A program made the translations under genes and the position numbers. Shown here piece after piece: positions 44,379 to 63,817 of a DNA stretch of 64,000 nucleotides (position 1 is the first letter of the stretch; the number at the start of each line of letters is the position of its first letter). The notes beneath the pieces are model-generated. The model saw only the letters and a program-made list of their open reading frames with translations, was not told the DNA's origin and made no database searches. Source of the stretch: a phage; the sequence record PZ445551.1. One strand, written 5' to 3'.

Positions 44379-44596
44379 TATTTTGAAAATTTTTATTTTT
44401 ATAAAAAGGGGTGTGGGTTTCATGTACGGAAATTCACCCTCTGCACAGTATATCCAGAGTAAGTAGTATTCTATACCCTGTTAATAAAGTATTTAATTTG
44501 TTTGTTGGACTATGGTATCTGATCTTTAAAAGGCATACTATCTCTTAACTACTACTTATAACAGAACAGTAAAATCATTTTTATAAAAAGTACAAA

Positions 44597-44800
44597 ATTA
44601 TTTAAAGTTTTTACAGATTTTTGGGTACAAATTTTGAAAATGAAAAGTTCAAGTTTGGTCAAAATTATTTAAAGTTTTTGTACGTATTTCTATTCAGATT
44701 TTGAAAATGAAAACTTCAATTTTTTAAAAATTCCCCAGTTTATTTAAAGTTTTTTTGCCTTTTTCCGTAGAAAAATCAAAAATGAAAAGTTCAATTTCGT
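44597..44800. repeat. Three tandem direct repeats (about 65-75 bp units: TATTTAAAGTTTTT ... GAAAATGAAAAGTTCAA)
   Basis: Repeated unit read directly in an AT-rich non-coding stretch. Confidence 0.6.
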
Positions 44801-44817
44801 GTTTTTATAGGTGTGTT

Positions 44818-44928
44818 AATGAGAATCATTTTCGTTTGTAAATGAGAATCATTATCATTTAACTATGTAAGTGATAATCATTCTCAGTAAGAGAATGAGA
44901 ATCCTTAGCAAATGAGAATTTTCTCATT
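44818..44928. promoter_or_regulatory. Cluster of five AATGAGAATCATT / GATAATCATTCTC iteron-like sites (Fur-box-like), including the perfect 18-bp palindrome AATGAGAATTTTCTCATT
   Basis: Repeated half-sites resembling the GATAAT hexamer of the Fur box; non-coding. Confidence 0.45.
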
Positions 44929-45044
44929 TAGAGAATAACGCGCAGGGGTGGTGTTTGTCTCGCGCTCCCGTGTCCCCTCGCCATACAATAAGAATAGCAT
45001 AACCAACAACAAAAGCAAGCGATTATTTTTATCTTTACATTTCT

Positions 45045-54423: not shown

Positions 54424-54455
54424 AAGAAAGGGGCGCACTAAGCGCCCTTTTTTGT
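54424..54455 (+). terminator. Rho-independent terminator (GGGCGC-actaa-GCGCCC + TTTTTT)
   Basis: Perfect stem with a T6 run. Confidence 0.7.
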
Positions 54456-55583: not shown

Positions 55584-55613
55584 ACCAGGGCGCACAAAGC
55601 GCCCTTTCTTTTT
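55584..55613 (+). terminator. Rho-independent terminator (AGGGCGC-acaaa-GCGCCCT + TTCTTTTT)
   Basis: Perfect stem with T-tract right after the 55188-55571 stop. Confidence 0.7.
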
Positions 55614-55817
55614 ACCTAAATAAAGATGATAGCTTTTACCTATCAAAAACGTTCACCGAAAAAAGTGAATAGATCGCGGTATCGAGCTAATCAAGGAGCA
55701 GATGAACAACCATACCATGAAGATCATAAGGCGCTTACAACGTGTTTTAGACCGCTTATTTTTAATTTCTCAATGTAACTATCTGGCAAAAACAGCCTTT
55801 TTCTTGTCTTTCCTCTT

Positions 55818-55893
55818 AAATGATAATCATTCTTATTTATAGCTGATTATTTATGCAATAAACTGAATAATGCAATAATGATAATCATTCTTA
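55818..55893. promoter_or_regulatory. Two Fur-box-like sites (AATGATAATCATTCTTA)
   Basis: Two copies, each matching most of the E. coli Fur consensus GATAATGATAATCATTATC. Confidence 0.45.
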
Positions 55894-56250
55894 ACTTATG
55901 ACCATCTAACCTATAAAATAATAAGTTATCTAACTAAATTAAAACTAATTATCTCACCTTTATTTATAACTTACTGTTACTATCTCATTGATAACCTTAT
56001 ATTAAACAACAATAACCAATATAAATCATTACTAAGCTAAATATAATCTATCTAACCTTTAAAACTATAACTATAATCTATCGAATTGTTGCACAAAGTA
56101 ACTATTAAATTGTTAGTAACATTACTAAATAATTAATATCCTATCTATTTATGATCTAATCTTTATCTTCCTATCTATTACCTAAATAATCATTTCATAC
56201 AGTAATCATTTCATACAATAATTATAACAAGAAATATAATTCGCAAGCGT

Positions 56251-56430
56251 ATCATTAGCAGCCTATGCCGGACACATAGGCGGCTAATAATAACGCAACT
56301 ACACACCCCACATAATAACCATCACCGATAGTTATTATTTGTGCTTATGTAGCTTGCAACAATTGCAAGCGCAACAATATACATGGTATATTGTATCCCT
56401 TACATTGTTGCGGTGCGTTATTATTAGCTA
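56251..56430. repeat. Large imperfect inverted repeat with nested palindromes (CCTATG/CATAGG; CTTGCAA-caa-TTGCAAG; GCTAATAATAACGCAAC / GTTGCG..GTTATTATTAGC)
   Basis: Inverted-repeat arms read directly in an AT-rich non-coding region; could form a cruciform or hairpin. Confidence 0.5.
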
Positions 56431-56756
56431 ATGTTTAGAACATTGGCTATAATATAAGCTAAGTAATAAGCTATGCAATAATAAACATGGTGAATAATGA
56501 CATTGATGATCATAATGCGCCACCTTCCAGGGGGCGCTATGTGAACACAAAGAAATCTTTCTTGTCAAGAAAAAATATTGCCATTATTGCGCAAAATTAT
56601 TTATATCTGAATAGATGATTTTTCATACTATTGCCCCATATAACATACCTCATTTGTTGAGCATAGTTATAGCCTATTTGTTGAGCCTACTTTCTTAAAA
56701 GCGCAATAAATCAGAATTATCTTGATTTTTAGTCTGTTTTATAGTATAGAAAGTAT

Positions 56757-56778
56757 GCAAATGATAATCATTATCAGC
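56757..56778. promoter_or_regulatory. Fur-box-like site containing AATGATAATCATTATC (16/16 match to consensus positions 4-19)
   Basis: Direct match to the canonical Fur box core. Confidence 0.5.
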
Positions 56779-56940
56779 TATCTTCCACGGGTAGCACTAT
56801 TTCACGCCAGATCATTTCATTTGGCAAGGTGTATATAGATGTTTAGACTTGCCAAGCCATTGATTTACTTAGAATTTATCTGTTTTGTTGTGAGTAGAGC
56901 CTTTCTTGCTCAGAAAATAATCAAAAGTCTTATAAGTCAT

Positions 56941-56976
56941 TGAATGATAATGCAAATGATAATTATTCTCATTGAT
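56941..56976. promoter_or_regulatory. Fur-box-like repeats (TGAATGATAATGCAAATGATAATTATTCTCATTGAT)
   Basis: Tandem GATAAT-type hexamers. Confidence 0.4.
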
Positions 56977-57332
56977 ATTTGAGGGGGACGGTCGGCAGAA
57001 ATCGGGGGGCGCTGAAAATCGCGTTAAGCACCTCTCGCAAGCGAGCAGTATTTTGCGGCAAGTTATTGATATTATTGGCTTTACGCTTATGAAAAGGGGG
57101 TGTGTCGAAATAAATCGGGTATACCGGAAAATTTTTGTGGCATAGATATTTATTTGTCTATATTATGTACAAAAGGGTGTGTTAAAAATATTAGGTATAT
57201 ATAGAATAATTGATAGGGAAATCCTATACTAATTCCTCCATTAATGATGTTTCTATGTTACTGTTCTTGTAACAGATGAAAAGACGCTGTATGATGTGTG
57301 GCATGAAACGTAAATTTATAAAGGAGTCTGAT

Positions 57333-57692
57333 ATGTGTGTTCCTCTTAGCAGTCCACTGCTGTTAGAATTTTACAAAGCATGGATGGAAGATCATTCCTC
57401 AATGCATCGTGAGAATGTTGGTTTGTGTAATTGCCTTATGGATTACCTGGCAACCACTATGTCAAAGAAAAAACCTACGGAAGAAGATATAGAATATTTC
57501 AAGATGGTTCGTAGCAAAACGCTGGAAGAGATGAAACTGCAATTCACGTGTGCTGGGCTATCCTCCTTTCTACCCTTTAATTATGATCTTCTGTGTTATG
57601 AAGATGAAGGTAAGACACATTCTTGCCATACCAACCCAAAGAGATTGCAGTGGGTGAAAGATCGTATTGCCGATTCATGCAAGGGTGTGTAG
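57333..57692 (+). CDS. Cys/His-rich small protein, paralog family member 1
   Basis: Start at ATG 57333 with SD AAGGAG; motifs LLEFYKAW, GLCNCL, QFTCAGL, PFN, RLQWVKDRI shared with three paralogs. Confidence 0.6.
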   Translation: MCVPLSSPLLLEFYKAWMEDHSSMHRENVGLCNCLMDYLATTMSKKKPTEEDIEYFKMVRSKTLEEMKLQFTCAGLSSFLPFNYDLLCYEDEGKTHSCHTNPKRLQWVKDRIADSCKGV

Positions 57693-57693
57693 A

Positions 57694-57849
57694 ATGTTGG
57701 AATTGATTGGGATAGTTTGGTTAATGATAAAAGCAGGTTTCGTCGGTTTCGGACTTCTTATAATTTTGTGTATGTTCCTTAGTGCAATACAGGCATTCTT
57801 TTATCTGCTAGGTAGAATACTTAAGTTGGGAGGTGATAATGAAAAGTAA
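57694..57849 (+). CDS. Small membrane protein (51 aa)
   Basis: Hydrophobic helix IGIVWLMIKAGFVGFGLLIILCMFL; longest ORF from 57667. Confidence 0.45.
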   Translation: MLELIGIVWLMIKAGFVGFGLLIILCMFLSAIQAFFYLLGRILKLGGDNEK

Positions 57850-58207
57850 TATTCCGTTGAGTAGTGCAGCTTTAATACGATTCTATAAAGCATGGATTGC
57901 CAACCATCCTGCAATGAATCGCACAACGAGTGGCTTATGTGGTTGTCTGGTAGATTATGTAGATGATTTTGTTGGTGAGATAACTAGAGAAGAAGATAAA
58001 AGATGGCGTGATCGTTTGTTGGATAGTTTGAAATACGAAATGAGGAAACAATTTACATGTGCAGGACTGGACTACAATCTTCCGTTCAATGCAGATTGCA
58101 TGGATTACCTTTCAGAGTGTATAGACTTGGCGTGTCATACCAACACGTTACGTCTTCAATGGGTGAAAGACAGAATCGAAGATGCAAATAATGCTTGCAT
58201 TGAATAG
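57839..58207 (+). CDS. Cys/His-rich small protein, paralog family member 2
   Basis: SD GGGAGGTGATA; motifs LIRFYKAW, GLCGCL, QFTCAGL, PFN, RLQWVKDRI. Confidence 0.6.
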   Translation: MKSNIPLSSAALIRFYKAWIANHPAMNRTTSGLCGCLVDYVDDFVGEITREEDKRWRDRLLDSLKYEMRKQFTCAGLDYNLPFNADCMDYLSECIDLACHTNTLRLQWVKDRIEDANNACIE

Positions 58208-58277
58208 AAATGTCTGTACACTGTGTTCCATAAGATATACAATATCGCGCATAACAAACTACTAATGAGAGGTGTAA

Positions 58278-58736
58278 ATGAAAACTGTATCTTTGTATCT
58301 TGCTAACACGGAGCGTGTACATAATCTTGTAAAAGAATGCGGTGTGAGTGTTCAATTTAATACAGGAAAGCCTTCCGTGGTGACAGGCAGTGAGATATGT
58401 GTTATTGATTTCCTCAATGAATATTTTCGTGGAAAACCTATTGCTCGTCACTTCATTCAAGAAATGCGAGATGTACTACAGGCTTATGAATTCTACCCTG
58501 AAGTTTGTGAACGCTATGAAACGATTCTTAGCTCTGTAGAAGATCCAGATACTAGTGAAACAGGTGCTTCCCACTTGCTGTGGATGTTGAATGAAATTCA
58601 GGATGGGTGTAATGGTATGTCTGAAACCAAACGCCATCGTTGGCTAGGCTATATTCAGGGTGTTATGGTTATGAAAAACCTTATTACAGTGAATGATGAA
58701 CGTAACGCTACACGCCCAGTCTTTAATGGAGCATAA
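58278..58736 (+). CDS. Hypothetical protein
   Basis: 152-aa ORF; SD GAGAGGTG. Confidence 0.6.
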   Translation: MKTVSLYLANTERVHNLVKECGVSVQFNTGKPSVVTGSEICVIDFLNEYFRGKPIARHFIQEMRDVLQAYEFYPEVCERYETILSSVEDPDTSETGASHLLWMLNEIQDGCNGMSETKRHRWLGYIQGVMVMKNLITVNDERNATRPVFNGA

Positions 58737-58737
58737 C

Positions 58738-58953
58738 ATGAAAAGCATTAGGGTGTGTATCGAAAATAATTGTGGTTATCTGGGGTTGACACACGTCGCT
58801 TTCCCTCTTATATTGGATGCCGATATAGCTTACAGCGGAGTTGCTTATGTGTCATTCAAAACAATGAGCCAAGTACCTGGCTGGAATTGGGAAGTGGTTG
58901 ATGTTGTTGAAGGAGAAGACTATGTTTTCCTTCCACACGAATATACAGTTTAA
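58738..58953 (+). CDS. Hypothetical small protein
   Basis: Start at ATG 58738 with SD GGAGCATAAC; 71 aa. Confidence 0.5.
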   Translation: MKSIRVCIENNCGYLGLTHVAFPLILDADIAYSGVAYVSFKTMSQVPGWNWEVVDVVEGEDYVFLPHEYTV

Positions 58954-58967
58954 AAGAGGAAAAGAAG

Positions 58968-59144
58968 ATGGATAAACAAACTACTATGTACTTAGTAACA
59001 AAGAATACCCCAGGCTGGAGCCAATGCAGCACTGTTCCTTATAAGATCTGTGCAACATTAGAACTAGCACAACGTGCAGAAGCAGAAGTGAATGCCATGC
59101 AATACAGCTATGGTGAAATCATTCCTTTTACTCTTGAACAATAA
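58968..59144 (+). CDS. Small hypothetical protein (58 aa, below the ORF-track threshold)
   Basis: ATG 58968 after AAGAGGAAAAGAAG; hand-translated. Confidence 0.45.
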   Translation: MDKQTTMYLVTKNTPGWSQCSTVPYKICATLELAQRAEAEVNAMQYSYGEIIPFTLEQ

Positions 59145-59155
59145 GGATTTGTGTA

Positions 59156-59608
59156 ATGTTTGAAATTGGTAAAGTGTATCGTTTTAAGAACCCATCTTAT
59201 ATCCGTAAGTTTGCTAACGTGTCTGAGTGCAATAGCAGGATTGCTTCTTTCTTAGGTGATTCTTATTTTCGTGTATTAGATGTGGATGATTGGTATGGTG
59301 TCACTGCTTTGCAATCCTTGGCAGGAGAACAAGAAATTATCGCTCAAAATGAAGGAGACTTTCTTCAGTGTTACACGTTGCTTGCAAAAAGTGAGTTTGA
59401 GTATTTTGTAGAAGTCTTAGAGGAAGCACCAAAAAGTAAACACGAAGAGAAATACCTGCTTGTAGTGGATGGAGTTCCGATCATGGAAACCATCTCCCGT
59501 GAGGAAGTTGAAAAAGAGGCGAAACGTTACAAACTGGATCGTACACAGAGTGTAGTTGAAATCTATTCTCTTGTTGGTGTTGCAGATATTAGTGTGAACA
59601 TCGTATAA
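59156..59608 (+). CDS. Hypothetical protein
   Basis: 150-aa ORF. Confidence 0.6.
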   Translation: MFEIGKVYRFKNPSYIRKFANVSECNSRIASFLGDSYFRVLDVDDWYGVTALQSLAGEQEIIAQNEGDFLQCYTLLAKSEFEYFVEVLEEAPKSKHEEKYLLVVDGVPIMETISREEVEKEAKRYKLDRTQSVVEIYSLVGVADISVNIV

Positions 59609-59611
59609 TAT

Positions 59612-59824
59612 ATGTGTAATGACAGATACATTCTCCGTGTATCTGATAAGTCTCCTATGTTTGACTGGCGGGGCTGGTGGCTACTAGCTCCGATGCAAGG
59701 TCTGACAGACGTGGAAAAGGAGGCTTATGTGTATACAAAAGAAGAGATAGAAGATAGCCTTTATTTGACAGATAACATTAAGAATGGTATCTTTGAGTGT
59801 AAATTGAAAGGAGAGGAAGAATGA
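59612..59824 (+). CDS. Hypothetical small protein
   Basis: 70-aa ORF. Confidence 0.5.
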   Translation: MCNDRYILRVSDKSPMFDWRGWWLLAPMQGLTDVEKEAYVYTKEEIEDSLYLTDNIKNGIFECKLKGEEE

Positions 59825-60120
59825 CTATTACAGAAAAACTGCGCTGTATTGCAAAGCAAAGTGGAGAAGGTTTATGGTTTCCTATTGAGGAAATTATTCA
59901 GGACTGTTATGATCAGGCTAAGACTGGCAAATACTCCAAAGCATTTAAACCGTCTGTTTTCGGTTTGGATGACTATCCAAAAAATGAACAAGCAAAGAAA
60001 CGACAAGTTGATTTGATTGATCTTGCTATGGAAGCACTACGAGAGCATGGGCTTAGTAAGGTGTATGCTTTAAACACCAAAGAGGGCTTTGTAGATTCAG
60101 TGATCGTAGACTGGTATTAA
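59821..60120 (+). CDS. Hypothetical protein
   Basis: 99-aa ORF; 4-nt overlap with the upstream gene. Confidence 0.55.
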   Translation: MTITEKLRCIAKQSGEGLWFPIEEIIQDCYDQAKTGKYSKAFKPSVFGLDDYPKNEQAKKRQVDLIDLAMEALREHGLSKVYALNTKEGFVDSVIVDWY

Positions 60121-60129
60121 GGAGAAGCC

Positions 60130-60498
60130 ATGCAAGAAAATAATAAAGTGTGTAACATGAAAAGCAGCCCCTATTTGCTACAATTTTATGAGTGGTGGTT
60201 AGAACAAGAAGATACAAACTTTAGCAAAAAGCATTATGGTCTTTGCACGTGTCTTGTAGACTTCTTATACAATATTGCTTGGATAAAAGATGTTGAGAAT
60301 GTAGCAAACCTCCAGTCCTCTGTACGAGAGGAAATGAAGGAACAGTTTAAGAAAGCAGGTTTGAACCATTTACACCCATTTAATACAGATTTCTCACATT
60401 ACTTTACGGAAACAGAGTTAGGCATTGCACACCTTAACAAAGAACGTGTACAATGGGTGATTGATCGTATTCGTGATATGGAGGAATATAATGGTTAA
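60130..60498 (+). CDS. Cys/His-rich small protein, paralog family member 3
   Basis: Motifs LLQFYEWW, GLCTCL, QFKKAGL, PFN, RVQWVIDRI. Confidence 0.6.
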   Translation: MQENNKVCNMKSSPYLLQFYEWWLEQEDTNFSKKHYGLCTCLVDFLYNIAWIKDVENVANLQSSVREEMKEQFKKAGLNHLHPFNTDFSHYFTETELGIAHLNKERVQWVIDRIRDMEEYNG

Positions 60499-60700
60499 GT
60501 TTAAAACTTTCTGTGCAATCTCTGTTTGTCTTATTCTTGCATACGTGTTATTCTCTAGTATCATTCGTTTAGGTGAGTATATGGCAAGAGAAGCTCGTGA
60601 AAGTGAAGCTAAAAAAGAACAGTGCATCGTGTTAAAGCACCAAAGGGATGCTGAAAAATTTCTTGAACAGGATTGTGGGCGCTATGTGAATTATAATTAG
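60491..60700 (+). CDS. Small membrane-anchored protein
   Basis: Start at ATG 60491 with SD GGAGGAATATA; N-terminal transmembrane helix. Confidence 0.5.
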   Translation: MVKFKTFCAISVCLILAYVLFSSIIRLGEYMAREARESEAKKEQCIVLKHQRDAEKFLEQDCGRYVNYN

Positions 60701-60709
60701 GAGGGAAGT

Positions 60710-60958
60710 ATGTTAGATATTTTTACCTTTGATCGTGTTGGTACACCGATTACCGAAGAAGAACGTACCAAAATTGAACAAGAATTGGATGCTTTACGTG
60801 CGTCTCTTACAGACACAGCCTCACTACAACGTGAAGCTGCACATCTCACAGAGATCACTGGTATTCAGTGGAGCACGGAGTGGGTTGTAATTACAATTGA
60901 AGCGGATATTTGGGGACATGAAGAGACGCTACGTACCGGAGTAGTAACGGTTTGGTGA
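60710..60958 (+). CDS. Hypothetical small protein
   Basis: 82-aa ORF; SD GGAGGGAAG. Confidence 0.55.
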   Translation: MLDIFTFDRVGTPITEEERTKIEQELDALRASLTDTASLQREAAHLTEITGIQWSTEWVVITIEADIWGHEETLRTGVVTVW

Positions 60959-61004
60959 TAGATGTTATTCTTTTGTGTTTCTTGATATATAAATAGGAGG
61001 GTTT

Positions 61005-61229
61005 ATGGTAAAACGTCTGGAATGGGATGCGTGTACTGCTCACGCTTGTCACTGTAATATTGTGGAAGATCCTAATGGAGAAATGGTGTATTATGAGGAT
61101 TACGAAGCATTGCATAATGCTGTGATCGCTTTACTGGATGATATTAGCTCACGCTATCCAGGACAACAGTTTACGTGTCCACATATCCAACTATTAGCCA
61201 AACTTACGGAGTATCCAAGTGTTTCATAA
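61005..61229 (+). CDS. Hypothetical small protein
   Basis: 74-aa ORF; SD AGGAGGG. Confidence 0.55.
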   Translation: MVKRLEWDACTAHACHCNIVEDPNGEMVYYEDYEALHNAVIALLDDISSRYPGQQFTCPHIQLLAKLTEYPSVS

Positions 61230-61230
61230 T

Positions 61231-61398
61231 ATGGGTGTCCCTGAACAACTCCTCTTTATTGTAGGATTAGTGGGCTTATTAGCGGCTGGAGCCAAAGCCG
61301 CTTCTCACACGCATCACATAATGTTAAGATTTCTGTTCCTACTCCCTTCTATCCTTGTATTATTAGTCATATTGATTGATAACATTTTTCACAATTAA
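61231..61398 (+). CDS. Small membrane peptide (55 aa), weak RBS
   Basis: Hydrophobic ORF filling the gap between neighbouring genes; hand-translated; no clear SD. Confidence 0.3.
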   Translation: MGVPEQLLFIVGLVGLLAAGAKAASHTHHIMLRFLFLLPSILVLLVILIDNIFHN

Positions 61399-61407
61399 GG
61401 AGAGGTT

Positions 61408-61992
61408 ATGAGTAAAATTATACCAAGCAGTTATGAATTATTGCAGTTTTATGTATATTACTTAGACTGGGTTAATAGATCGAATGTTAAAGACAATGCG
61501 ATGTTTAGTAAAAACATCTGTTTAACAGAAAGTATCTTCCGTTATTGGCACACAGGCAGAAAGTGTACACACAGTGAAGCTATGCGTATTGTAGGTGAAT
61601 ACCTGGAGCAATTGCAAAAAGCAGAACTTCCTGTCCTTCACCCATTCAACGAATCTAAAGAAGAATTAGAACAAGAGTGTAGAGAAGGTAAGTGCCATTT
61701 AAATGAAAAACGTATCGAATGGGTGAGGCAACGTTTAGCCGATGCAGGAAAGACTCCTAGTGACTCTGACTATACGTGGTATGATGTAGAGGGTTTAGTT
61801 CAAGGTTTTGAGGCTTGTGCTATAGATAATACCAACTTTGCCAAAGTTTTATGTGAGGCTTATGATCTGGCAGATAAAATCCGAAATCACGGATGGAAAC
61901 AAGAGCATAAAGAATCATATGAACGCCTTGACAAGATTTTCAAACAGATCTATTCTAACCACAAGAAGATGTTCCAAATGGAGGATGTGTAA
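61408..61992 (+). CDS. Cys/His-rich protein, paralog family member 4 (extended C-terminus)
   Basis: Motifs LLQFYVYYL, PFN, RIEWVRQRL; SD AAGGAGAGG. Confidence 0.6.
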   Translation: MSKIIPSSYELLQFYVYYLDWVNRSNVKDNAMFSKNICLTESIFRYWHTGRKCTHSEAMRIVGEYLEQLQKAELPVLHPFNESKEELEQECREGKCHLNEKRIEWVRQRLADAGKTPSDSDYTWYDVEGLVQGFEACAIDNTNFAKVLCEAYDLADKIRNHGWKQEHKESYERLDKIFKQIYSNHKKMFQMEDV

Positions 61993-62678
61993 TGAAAGAG
62001 ATTATGTTTGAAGGGCATTGTTACGAAGTTCCAGACAATGCAAATTTCATGGCTCGTGATATCACTGGAGATGTGTTCTGGTTTGAAGATGAACCTATGT
62101 TTTCTTCGAACAAACACTGGTTTTCACAACAATCTTCTTCGGAAAATATGACTTTTGGCTACGTAGAGTCTAAAGTACGTTGCAAAGCAGCTTCTTCTTT
62201 GGTAAAAATTTCCCAAGATGACCAAGAAAATACTCAAGATGTTGTTAGTGCGCTACTGAAGTACATTGCAGAACTTGAGAAGAAAATTAAAGAAGCAGAA
62301 ACTAAGGTGAAAGCACGATCAGCAATCATCGAAACTATGTCTGAACGTATTTTAGAACTAGAAGATTTGTGTGGAGAGGCTTATCAAGTGGTTGGTGCGC
62401 TGGCGTGTGAAGCACAAATGTTTGAAACTTCAGAACAAGTTTCGCATATGTTAGATAATTTGAGTGAATGTAAAATGATTCATGATGATGTATTGCCATT
62501 TTGTTGCAATGTTAACAAAACAGAGCAAACACAAGATTCAGAAACAGTTTATGTTCCGCTAATGTGTGTTCCAGATCATCTAAAAGGTGTATTCTCTTGT
62601 AAATGGTCGCTGTTGAGCGTTACTAATTGTGGTGAAAACTATTCTGCCAACATTGAATTGCTAAAACACGTTAAATAA
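61992..62678 (+). CDS. Hypothetical protein (Cys-rich)
   Basis: 228-aa ORF. Confidence 0.6.
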   Translation: MKEIMFEGHCYEVPDNANFMARDITGDVFWFEDEPMFSSNKHWFSQQSSSENMTFGYVESKVRCKAASSLVKISQDDQENTQDVVSALLKYIAELEKKIKEAETKVKARSAIIETMSERILELEDLCGEAYQVVGALACEAQMFETSEQVSHMLDNLSECKMIHDDVLPFCCNVNKTEQTQDSETVYVPLMCVPDHLKGVFSCKWSLLSVTNCGENYSANIELLKHVK

Positions 62679-62688
62679 GGAGAGTAAT

Positions 62689-63093
62689 ATGTGGTCTGTT
62701 AAAATCAAATATAATGCGCAGTATTATGGTGGAAAGCCTTACGAAGTTGTTATTTGTGATTGTATCTCTAAAGAAGTTGCACAGCTTTGTGGCGCTGGTG
62801 TTAGTGAAGCTATGAACAAAATGCATAACTCTACTGTGCGTTACTTGGATCAAGATATTCCAGAAGATGTAAATGACTATGCTTACGAAGTTATTTACAG
62901 TGAAGGTAAGAAGCTCTCTATTGAAGATGCACTTAAAGCACTACCTGCTATGTGCAGCCCAACACCAAAAGCAGTTAAAGAGATTTTACCAGAATCCAAC
63001 CCCGATGAATATGCTGCTATGGTTGCTTCGGACATGTGGAATCTCTGTCGAGAAACTATGATTAAAAATCTGGTGGAAATGGCGCATGAGTAA
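62689..63093 (+). CDS. Hypothetical protein
   Basis: 134-aa ORF; SD AAGGAGAG. Confidence 0.6.
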   Translation: MWSVKIKYNAQYYGGKPYEVVICDCISKEVAQLCGAGVSEAMNKMHNSTVRYLDQDIPEDVNDYAYEVIYSEGKKLSIEDALKALPAMCSPTPKAVKEILPESNPDEYAAMVASDMWNLCRETMIKNLVEMAHE

Positions 63094-63472: not shown

Positions 63473-63817
63473 ATGTTGGCTGATATTGAAATCCTTATGT
63501 ACCGACAAGGTATGATCAAAATGTGGCTAGATTCTTTTAGCAACATATACTGCACAGTACGATCAGCAGACGAGCGTAAAACGCTTATTTTATCTGCTAT
63601 TGTTGATAAACAACGTTTCTTCAAAGAAATTTTGCAAACAGGCTTCTCCGATGCAGGAGTAGAGATTGCAACGCTTAGTCTTGGAGTGCTGTCTTACTTG
63701 GAATCCGTTGTTTTATATGTCTTCTCTTTAGAAGAACACTTGCAATTTGAAGCATTAAAACTTATCTTAGATGCTGCAATTGACATAGAACAAAATCGAA
63801 TTGATTCTTTTGAATAA
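63473..63817 (+). CDS. Hypothetical protein
   Basis: Start at ATG 63473 with SD GGAGAAATAAT; 114 aa. Confidence 0.55.
   Translation: MLADIEILMYRQGMIKMWLDSFSNIYCTVRSADERKTLILSAIVDKQRFFKEILQTGFSDAGVEIATLSLGVLSYLESVVLYVFSLEEHLQFEALKLILDAAIDIEQNRIDSFE

What the first reader, a model, noticed from the sequence alone, without database searches (positions are those of the whole stretch)
57333..61992. Four-member family of diversified Cys/His-rich small proteins
ORFs at 57333-57692, 57839-58207, 60130-60498 and 61408-61992 share ordered motifs (LxxFYxxW, GLCxCL, QF(T/K)(C/K)AGL, PFN, R(L/V/I)(Q/E)WV(K/I/R)(D/Q)RI) but are otherwise divergent. Conserved Cys and His suggest metal binding. Expanded, fast-diverging paralog families in early regions are typical of host-range or anti-defence factors.
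Basis: seen in the sequence. Interest (0 to 1): 0.6.

Follow-up and report, generated by a model that had tools for sequence, protein, structure and literature searches.

The report
Uncharacterised phage early-protein paralog family
Four genes at the inferred leading end of this E. coli phage genome are true ancient copies of one small helical protein domain that is widespread in phages (including the model phage N4, gene 3) but has no known function, no database family and no solved structure; the suggested metal-binding site is not a property of the family.

Summary
The four ORFs are real, annotated genes of Escherichia phage VivaForever (phi92-like, Stephanstirmvirinae) and are homologous (pairwise BLASTP E 1e-8 to 1e-34). 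All hit phrog_2510, which has no assigned function. It is phage-specific, has no Pfam hit (0 of 106 members), and includes coliphage N4 gp3. AlphaFold gives a confident all-helical fold (pLDDT 88) with no solved relative.

By homology to phi92's mapped terminal repeat, paralogs A and B are the first two genes after the physical left end. In N4-like and T7-like phages the family also sits in early regions.

- Only one Cys is conserved family-wide (97%). His is at 73% and the other Cys are clade-specific, so there is no general zinc site.
- Orthologs are under purifying selection (dN/dS 0.06-0.20), so they are not fast-diverging.
- The locus does change by copy number (0-7 per genome), A/B chimeras, deletion scars and mosaic alleles, with breakpoints at the conserved QWVKDRI motif.

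Function is unknown. My best guess is a soluble early protein that binds a host target. General anti-restriction is unlikely.

The parts
57333..57692 (+). Paralog A (119 aa), the first gene after the inferred genome end; 7 Cys; A/B-type clade
   Evidence: GenBank CDS; RBS at 57322-57326; phrog_2510 E=4.5e-22; ortholog dN/dS 0.16; absent from phi92
57694..57849 (+). Small hydrophobic ORF (51 aa) between A and B, overlapping the start of B; probably not a functional partner of the family
   Evidence: Annotated CDS; maximum 19-residue hydropathy 2.49; absent from EmilieFrey and inny; adjacency to TM-like ORFs does not hold in distant phages
57839..58207 (+). Paralog B (122 aa), the only copy with the full clade-specific Cys set (C39, C41, C75, C95, C100, H101); a mosaic allele class
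   Evidence: 18 B-tail alleles are 43-98% identical overall but 97-100% identical over the last ~11 residues; dN/dS 0.20
60130..60498 (+). Paralog C (122 aa), orthologue of phi92 gp006; the protein modelled by AlphaFold2
   Evidence: model pLDDT 88, pTM 0.81, helices at 14-25, 31-35, 38-53, 58-75, 88-97 and 104-121; 90% identity or more in 56 phage records; dN/dS 0.06
61408..61992 (+). Paralog D (194 aa), orthologue of phi92 gp010: a divergent core (residues 1-115, lacking canonical Cys39) plus a C-terminal extension
   Evidence: phrog_27059 E=9e-140 and phrog_2510 E=7e-18; AlphaFold2 core pLDDT 85-97 with the same helix order; dN/dS 0.09
61750..61989 (+). C-terminal extension of D (~80 aa, three predicted helices at low confidence), essentially confined to this genus
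   Evidence: pLDDT 56-76; tblastn finds 56 records at 90% identity or more and only 4 distant hits
57648..57668 (+). 21-nt DNA repeat encoding QWVKDRI in A; further copies at 58157-58177 (B) and 60451-60471 (C), and a weaker one at 61706-61726 (D); acts as a recombination joint
   Evidence: Repeat families D4 and D13; the phi92 deletion ends at 58157 and the JohannJBalmer A/B chimera joins there
57247..58156 (+). Segment (A, the small ORF and most of B) that is missing in phi92, which keeps only the last 16 codons of B as a scar
   Evidence: phi92 1-565 = window 56684-57246 and phi92 566-641 = window 58157-58232; junction sequences
56684..57026 (+). Homologue of the phi92 left direct terminal repeat, marking the inferred physical left end of the genome
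   Evidence: phi92 left terminal repeat annotated at 1-343; 97.7% identity over 565 nt

Best explanation
The four genes are old paralogs (30-47% identity) of an uncharacterised, phage-specific, all-alpha domain of about 110 residues. I call it the N4 gp3 / phrog_2510 family. They are encoded in the first ~5.3 kb after the inferred physical left end of a phi92-like myovirus genome.

Shown:
- The four are homologous, and the family is large.
- The predicted fold is confident and has no solved relative.
- The genes sit in leading-end or early positions in four unrelated phage groups.
- Each paralog is under purifying selection.
- Copy number and alleles change by recombination at the conserved 3' QWVKDRI-coding repeat.

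Inferred (about 40% confidence for the mechanism): each paralog is a soluble cytoplasmic early protein that works by binding a host component, as a host-takeover or counter-defence module. The conserved aromatic core and helix-capping residues would form a rigid scaffold. The variable alpha2-alpha3 loop and the alpha4 surface would set target specificity. That would explain why several diverged copies are each kept and why alleles are swapped as cassettes.
For: Homology.

Family size and architecture: 1,346 clusters at E<=1e-3, mostly single domains of 100-120 aa, some with 2-3 tandem domains or embedded in mosaic prophage-type proteins.

Phage specificity: 1 hit in 72,556 plasmids and none in the species-representative genomes.

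Soluble and mildly acidic: pI 5.2-6.1, no TM segment.

Early or leading-end position: the phi92 terminal-repeat homology; gp001 and gp002 of Schickermooser; genes 2 and 3 of a Rhizobium autographivirus; beside RNAP1 in an N4-like Erwinia phage; N4 gp3 between the early genes gp2 and gp15.

Selection: purifying on every copy.

Variable segments versus a conserved core and termini.

Copy-number dynamics: 1-7 places per record, A/B chimera, phi92 scar.
Against: No binding partner or phenotype is known, and nothing here tests binding. About ten polar residues (S13, Y20, C39, E68, Q72, N85, E94, H101, N103, R106) are conserved at 73-100% across hosts from Alpha- to Gammaproteobacteria. That fits a shared ligand or catalytic site at least as well as a pure scaffold. 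I could not map these residues in 3D because the tools return no coordinates. Which genome end enters the cell first is not known for phi92-like phages. The promoter scan shows no enrichment upstream of A (38 sites found against 36.9 expected).
Confidence: 0.4

Rival explanations
1. The domain is a small enzyme or small-molecule binder. The near-invariant Cys39, at the N-terminus of helix 2, would be a reactive thiol that works with His101, Arg106 and Glu68/Gln72. The paralogs would differ in substrate.
For: Cys39 is 97% conserved over 197 domains and invariant in a 106-sequence alignment at ~30% identity, together with R106 (99-100%), Y20, and E68/Q72 (87-90%). It sits at a helix N-terminus in the model. 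Purifying selection acts on all copies.
Against: No similarity to any enzyme fold or family was found. His101 is only 73% conserved, with Tyr at 12%. Paralog D lacks Cys39 yet is conserved and under purifying selection. Several conserved polar residues (S13, N85, N103) lie next to predicted helix starts, which fits structural capping (inference).
Confidence: 0.2
2. One reading: the conserved Cys and His bind a structural metal such as zinc.
For: A and B have 7 Cys each. In the A/B-type clade C41, C75 and C95 co-occur (C41-C75 22/0, Fisher p=3e-18). B has C39, C41, C75, C95, C100 and H101. In an antiparallel alpha2/alpha3 hairpin, C41 and C75 would be neighbours (inference).
Against: Family-wide only one Cys is conserved, and the median domain has 3 Cys. 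C and D in this same genome each lack several candidate ligands. Even among the 18 B-tail alleles, C75 and C100 fall below 80% conservation in the consensus; in the alignment P0009 has Arg and P0015 His at position 75, and P0015, P0017 and P0018 have Ser and P0020 Thr at position 100. The co-occurrence is confounded by shared ancestry.
Confidence: 0.1
3. An anti-restriction protein, either Arn-like (one cluster member is labelled 'Anti-restriction nuclease' by its source) or an Ocr/ArdA-like DNA mimic.
For: The source label on CAM6581850.1. The position as first gene on the genome resembles T7 gene 0.3.
Against: hhalign against T4 Arn gives probability 0.3% and BLASTP E=10. pI of 5.2-6.1 with net charge -2 to -6 is not that of a DNA mimic. 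No fold match was found. phi92-like phages with 2-4 copies are 'exceptionally susceptible' to RM systems (PMC8594841; copy counts).
Confidence: 0.04
4. A phage transcription or DNA-binding regulator involved in the early-to-middle switch.
Confidence: 0.08

Closest known systems
Coliphage N4 gp3 (ABK54374.1, 104 aa; EF056009 1214-1528)
   Same: It has the same domain: broad-HMM E=7.6e-22, hhalign probability 99.3%, and BLASTP to B/D/A/C at 8e-13 to 3e-7. GLC, PFN and CHLNxxRIxW are conserved. It is also near the genome's left end, 1.2 kb in, within the early region.
   Different: N4 has a single copy with a shorter alpha2-alpha3 segment. It is transcribed by the injected virion RNAP rather than, presumably, the host RNAP. 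I found no function for it in the literature I could search.
PHROG families phrog_2510, 6418, 27059 and 2176 (all 'unknown function')
   Same: All four paralogs and 106 of 106 diverse members match phrog_2510. D is a full-length match to phrog_27059.
   Different: These are automatic clusters with no annotation. There is no Pfam or NCBIfam counterpart.
Mosaic lambdoid-prophage early-region proteins (DUF551-containing and 'Ea22/Eaa-like' types)
   Same: The same domain is embedded as one module in 250-400 aa mosaic proteins, for example P0163, P0154 and P0057, whose cluster carries the DUF551 label.
   Different: Only the domain is shared. No other module of those proteins occurs in the window. 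The window proteins have no Pfam DUF551 hit.
T4 Arn (anti-restriction nuclease; inhibitor of McrBC)
   Same: It is a small phage early protein, and one family member carries this name in a source annotation.
   Different: There is no sequence or profile similarity, and Arn is absent from the fold-search hits.
T7 gene 0.3 (Ocr) and other first-gene early accessory proteins
   Same: It resembles the family by position only: the first gene after the genome end, small, acidic and dispensable (for T7's layout).
   Different: The T7 early region has no family member. The family is far less acidic than a DNA mimic would be. The resemblance is an analogy, not homology.

Membership tests
phrog_2510 / N4 gp3-like domain family | Significant profile match over the whole ~110-aa domain | tested here: met
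   E 7e-18 to 1.5e-25 for all four; N4 gp3 against the family profile gives probability 99.3%
phrog_2510 / N4 gp3-like domain family | Conserved motif set LxxFYxxW, GLC, (E)MxxQFxxAGL, PFN, HxNxxRxxWV | tested here: met
   Present in A, B and C. D keeps all except GLC and AGL
phrog_2510 / N4 gp3-like domain family | Shared all-alpha fold with five main helices | tested here: met
   C pLDDT 88. The D core has the same helix order at pLDDT 85-97. BFVD matches are other family members at TM 0.6-0.7
Structural zinc-binding domain (four conserved Cys/His ligands) | Four ligand positions conserved across the family | tested here: not met
   Only C39 is at 97%; C41 21%, C100 50%, H101 73%; C and D lack several
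Structural zinc-binding domain (four conserved Cys/His ligands) | Bound metal in the purified protein | not testable with these tools
   This needs ICP-MS or a PAR assay. A clade-specific site in A/B-type proteins is not excluded
T4 Arn anti-restriction nuclease family | Sequence or profile homology to T4 Arn | tested here: not met
   hhalign probability 0.3%; BLASTP E=10
DNA-mimic anti-restriction proteins (Ocr/ArdA type) | Strongly acidic surface (pI about 4, from my own knowledge) and a DNA-mimic fold | tested here: not met
   pI 5.2-6.1 and family median 5.4; no fold match
Pfam DUF551 | Match to PF04448 above the gathering score | tested here: not met
   No Pfam hit for the four at E<=1, nor for 106 members at E<=0.01. 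The DUF551 label belongs to a separate N-terminal module in fusion proteins
Sigma-factor-binding protein Crl | Score above the curated cut-off (Pfam 27 bits; NCBIfam 117 bits) | tested here: not met
   Paralog C only, at 13 and 14.9 bits
Known anti-phage defence or anti-defence catalogue (PADLOC) | Significant match to a catalogued model | tested here: not met
   Only a 12-bit chance match to Cas12d

The most novel reading that the evidence does not exclude
The N4 gp3-like domain is a previously unrecognised and very widespread class of phage early effector with a new fold. Its near-invariant Cys/Arg site would carry out one conserved biochemical act, such as covalent or thiol-dependent modification or sequestration of a conserved proteobacterial target. 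Phages would diversify it by cassette exchange at the leading end of the genome. If so, VivaForever's four copies are a multi-specificity arsenal, and N4 gp3 is a ready genetic model for it.
Probability: 0.15. Interest if true: 0.75.

Novelty: new member of a known kind. Interest (0 to 1): 0.4.

Why it matters
The family is one of the larger pieces of phage 'dark matter' without a curated entry. It has over 1,300 clusters at 50% identity and spans myo-, sipho- and podoviruses, both virulent and temperate, on Alpha-, Beta- and Gammaproteobacteria. It consistently sits in early or leading-end regions. Linking it to N4 gp3 gives it a tractable model. Natural variants with 2, 3 and 4 copies already exist in the BASEL collection (Bas60, Bas62 and Bas61), which sets up a simple comparison. 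The cassette-like recombination at a conserved coding motif shows how such accessory loci diversify. If a function were found it would annotate thousands of phage genes. For now this is an ordinary, though large, unknown family.

Tried and rejected
1. Conserved module of a family gene plus a small membrane protein. The three clearly TM-like small ORFs in the block each abut a paralog (post-hoc p about 0.04). Only 2 of 11 family genes in five other phages have such a neighbour, and EmilieFrey and inny lack the ORF between A and B. Rejected.

2. The 'Anti-restriction nuclease' source label. Tested against T4 Arn and rejected.

3. The 'goF' and 'transcription factor' labels in relatives. They sit on neighbouring genes, not on the family.

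4. Prophage context in bacterial genomes. Two scans of GTDB species-representative genomes found nothing, and one alignment was too divergent for the tool.

5. Plasmid leading regions. The family is essentially absent.

6. Fusion partners as functional clues. Ten fusion proteins gave no significant Pfam or NCBIfam domain, and their other modules are not in the window.

7. D's C-terminal extension. The word-indexed search found nothing, tblastn shows it is confined to the genus, and the model there is low-confidence.

8. AFDB50 fold search. The library was not available.

9. Literature. Searches for phrog_2510, Justusliebigvirus paralogs, N4 gp3 and N4 or phi92-like coverage in CRISPRi-ART, transposon mutagenesis and HIDEN-SEQ studies gave no functional data.

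10. Rfam and tRNA scans were negative.

11. T1, lambda, the T7 early region and T4 150-169 kb have no family member.
Full report
**Identity of the window.** Window 57000-62000 is 100% identical to Escherichia phage VivaForever (PP925843.1, 146 kb) and about 97% identical to many phi92-like phages of the genus Justusliebigvirus, subfamily Stephanstirmvirinae. An AGGAG ribosome-binding site lies 7 nt upstream of the ATG at 57333.

- Pairwise BLASTP E-values run from 3.5e-34 (A-B, 47% identity) to about 1e-8 (A-D and B-D).
- All four hit phrog_2510 at E 7e-18 to 1.5e-25.
- An HMM of the four finds no further copy in the six-frame translation of the 64-kb window. tblastn finds four places in the whole VivaForever genome.
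- Two corrections apply. D has 'NICL' in place of 'GLCxC' and 'QLQKAEL' in place of 'QFxxAGL'. Among the four, only one Cys and one His are invariant.

**The family is much larger than the word-indexed search suggested.**
- That search found only 35 clusters, none with a Pfam domain.
- The exhaustive profile search found 1,346 clusters at 50% identity with E<=1e-3, and 499 with E<=1e-10.
- Most members are single domains of 100-120 aa. Some have two or three tandem domains.
- A few are embedded in 250-400 aa mosaic proteins of lambdoid-prophage type. Only this domain is shared between those proteins and the window.
- None of 106 diverse members hits any Pfam family at E<=0.01, while all 106 hit phrog_2510. 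NCBIfam and PADLOC give nothing above noise.
- The family is phage-specific: one hit among 72,556 plasmids and none in two scans of species-representative bacterial genomes.
- tblastn finds it in 178 phage records with 1-7 places each. These cover Stephanstirmvirinae, T1-like Drexlerviridae, Rhizobium Autographiviridae and N4-like Erwinia phages.
- The viral structure library adds Burkholderia, Achromobacter, Delftia, Pectobacterium and Klebsiella phages, all uncharacterised.

**A model-phage member exists.** A family HMM scan of classic genomes found that coliphage N4 gp3 (104 aa) is a member.
- Scores: E=7.6e-22 with the broad HMM, hhalign probability 99.3%, and BLASTP E of 8e-13 to 3e-7 to B, D, A and C.
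- T1, lambda, the T7 early region and T4 150-169 kb have no member.
- gp3 lies between gp2 and gp15. The N4 review lists gp1, gp2, gp15 and gp16 as early products made by the injected virion RNAP (PMC4496689).
- I found no function for gp3 in the searchable literature.

**Structure.**
- AlphaFold2 on paralog C with a 35-sequence alignment gives a confident all-helical model: pLDDT 88, pTM 0.81, helices at 14-25, 31-35, 38-53, 58-75, 88-97 and 104-121.
- Full-length D has the same helix order in its core (pLDDT 85-97), plus a three-helix C-terminal extension at low confidence. That extension is essentially confined to the genus.
- The tools return no model coordinates, so I could not map the conserved residues in 3D.

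**Metal binding.**
- Across 197 aligned domains only Cys39 (paralog C numbering, the 'GLC' motif at the start of helix 2) is conserved, at 97%.
- The second Cys of CxC is at 21%, with Asn at 59%. Cys100 is at 50%. His101 is at 73%, with Tyr at 12%.
- In a 106-sequence alignment the invariant residues are Y20, C39, P83, F84 and R106.
- The extra Cys positions 41, 75 and 95 co-occur strongly (C41-C75 22/0, p=3e-18), but they define the A/B-type clade. Only B has the full set, and C and D each lack several.
- Even among the 18 B-tail alleles, positions 75 and 100 fall below 80% conservation. For example, P0009 has Arg at position 75 and P0015 has Ser at position 100.
- So a four-ligand metal site is not a family property. 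A clade-specific site in A and B cannot be excluded without biochemistry.

**Genome position.**
- phi92 has an annotated 343-bp left direct terminal repeat. Its bases 1-565 align to window 56684-57246 at 97.7%.
- By homology, the physical left end of the VivaForever genome is therefore near window 56684. Paralog A starts about 650 bp further in, and A and B are the first two genes.
- In phi92 the C and D orthologues are gp006 and gp010. In the Phapecoctavirus Schickermooser, gp001 and gp002 are both family members.
- A Rhizobium autographivirus has three domains in genes 2 and 3. An N4-like Erwinia phage has one next to RNAP1 subunit A.
- This supports 'early'. It remains an inference for phi92-like phages, because the direction of DNA entry and the transcript timing are not known. 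The sigma-70 promoter scan shows no enrichment.

**Evolution.**
- Within the genus, ortholog dN/dS is 0.16 (A), 0.20 (B), 0.06 (C) and 0.09 (D). The neighbouring genes range from 0.03 to 0.27. Every copy is under purifying selection, so 'fast-diverging' is not supported at this scale.
- What changes is gene content. VivaForever, Eryne, EmilieFrey and inny have four copies. JohannJBalmer has an A-body/B-tail chimera plus C and D. phi92 has only C and D, plus a 16-codon remnant of B fused to the upstream non-coding DNA.
- The phi92 deletion endpoint and the chimera joint both fall on the 21-nt repeat that encodes QWVKDRI, which is shared by A, B and C (family D4).
- Eighteen B-tail alleles are 43-98% identical overall. 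They are 97-100% identical over the last ~11 residues but only 22-46% identical in the alpha2-alpha3 loop region. That is a cassette-like mosaic pattern.
- The natural deletions show that A and B are dispensable for growth on laboratory hosts.

**What it is probably not.**
- One cluster member is labelled 'Anti-restriction nuclease' by its source. T4 Arn shows no similarity: hhalign probability 0.3% and BLASTP E=10.
- The proteins are only mildly acidic (pI 5.2-6.1; family median 5.4) and have no TM segment. That fits neither a DNA mimic nor a basic DNA binder.
[quoted passage not shown] The phi92-like BASEL phages carry 2-4 family copies. A general anti-restriction role is therefore unlikely.
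- The 'goF' and 'transcription factor' labels in relatives sit on neighbouring genes.

**Best explanation.** With about 0.9 confidence, these are four anciently diverged, individually maintained copies of the N4 gp3 / phrog_2510 early-protein domain at the inferred leading end of the genome. With about 0.4 confidence, they act as soluble proteins that bind host components. The conserved core would be the scaffold and the variable loop and alpha4 surfaces would set specificity.

**Main rival.** The main rival, at about 0.2, is a thiol-dependent enzyme or ligand binder. That idea is prompted by the near-invariant Cys39 and Arg106. It is weakened because paralog D, which lacks Cys39, is nonetheless conserved and under purifying selection.

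**Novelty and score.**
- The family is catalogued only as unannotated PHROG clusters. It has no Pfam entry, no solved structure and no described function.
- As a kind of thing, a multi-copy early accessory gene family in a large virulent phage is familiar.
- I rate it a new member of a known kind with moderate interest (0.4).
- It is a good target because of its breadth, the N4 handle and the natural copy-number variants. Nothing found here is surprising in itself.

Noticed in passing
window 55819-55831, 55877-55889, 56757-56775, 56955-56967; second cluster 44815-44882: Sites resembling the E. coli Fur box (consensus GATAATGATAATCATTATC, from my own knowledge) are strongly enriched: 5 matches at 3 mismatches or fewer against 0.05 expected, and 11 matches to the 13-nt core against 0.42 expected. 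One cluster flanks or lies inside the inferred terminal repeat just upstream of paralog A. The other is in the ORF-free stretch 44379-45044 (no ORF of 60 aa or more). This may mean iron or Fur control of a virulent phage's leading-end genes.
   Followed up: partly
window 56497-56533, 56755-56791, 56950-56986: Three copies of a 37-nt repeat (73-76% identity) lie in the ORF-poor region. The second and third contain a Fur-box-like core, and all three end in a G-run (CCAGGGG, CCACGGG or GAGGGG). They may be phage-specific regulatory or terminal-repeat elements.
   Followed up: no
window 55600-57330: A 1.7-kb AT-rich stretch has no convincing genes. It is preceded by strong terminator-like hairpins at 54425-54453 and 55587-55605. 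By homology to phi92 it contains the junction of the physical genome ends, with the terminal repeat at about 56684-57026.
   Followed up: partly
window 57694-57849, 60491-60700, 61231-61398: Three small, strongly hydrophobic ORFs (51, 69 and 55 aa) each abut a family paralog. The pattern does not hold in distant phages, so it is probably coincidental.
   Followed up: yes
window 61408-61761 joined to 63473-63817 (protein P0013): A metagenomic variant (P0013, 166 aa) fuses the core of paralog D at '...RLADAG' to the C-terminus of the gene at 63473-63817. This implies a natural deletion of about 1.9 kb that removes D's extension and the genes between them, including the two Eaa-like genes.
   Followed up: no
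window 59156-59608, 59821-60120, 61992-62678, 62689-63093: Neighbouring genes carry tentative labels in relatives: 'goF mRNA metabolism modulator' (Eryne), 'putative transcription factor' or 'predicted transcription regulator' (EmilieFrey, phi92 gp005), and 'potential Eaa-like protein' (phi92 gp011 and gp012). None was verified here.
   Followed up: no
records MG065645, MG065689, MG065639, MG065656 (matches to window 57000-62000): Four records named 'Campylobacter phage' with host C. jejuni are about 97% identical to this E. coli phage over the region and carry the family's four paralogs. Their host assignment looks doubtful.
   Followed up: no
window ~40000: GC skew switches sign sharply near 40 kb, from negative upstream to positive downstream. 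This fits a change in the dominant coding strand.
   Followed up: no
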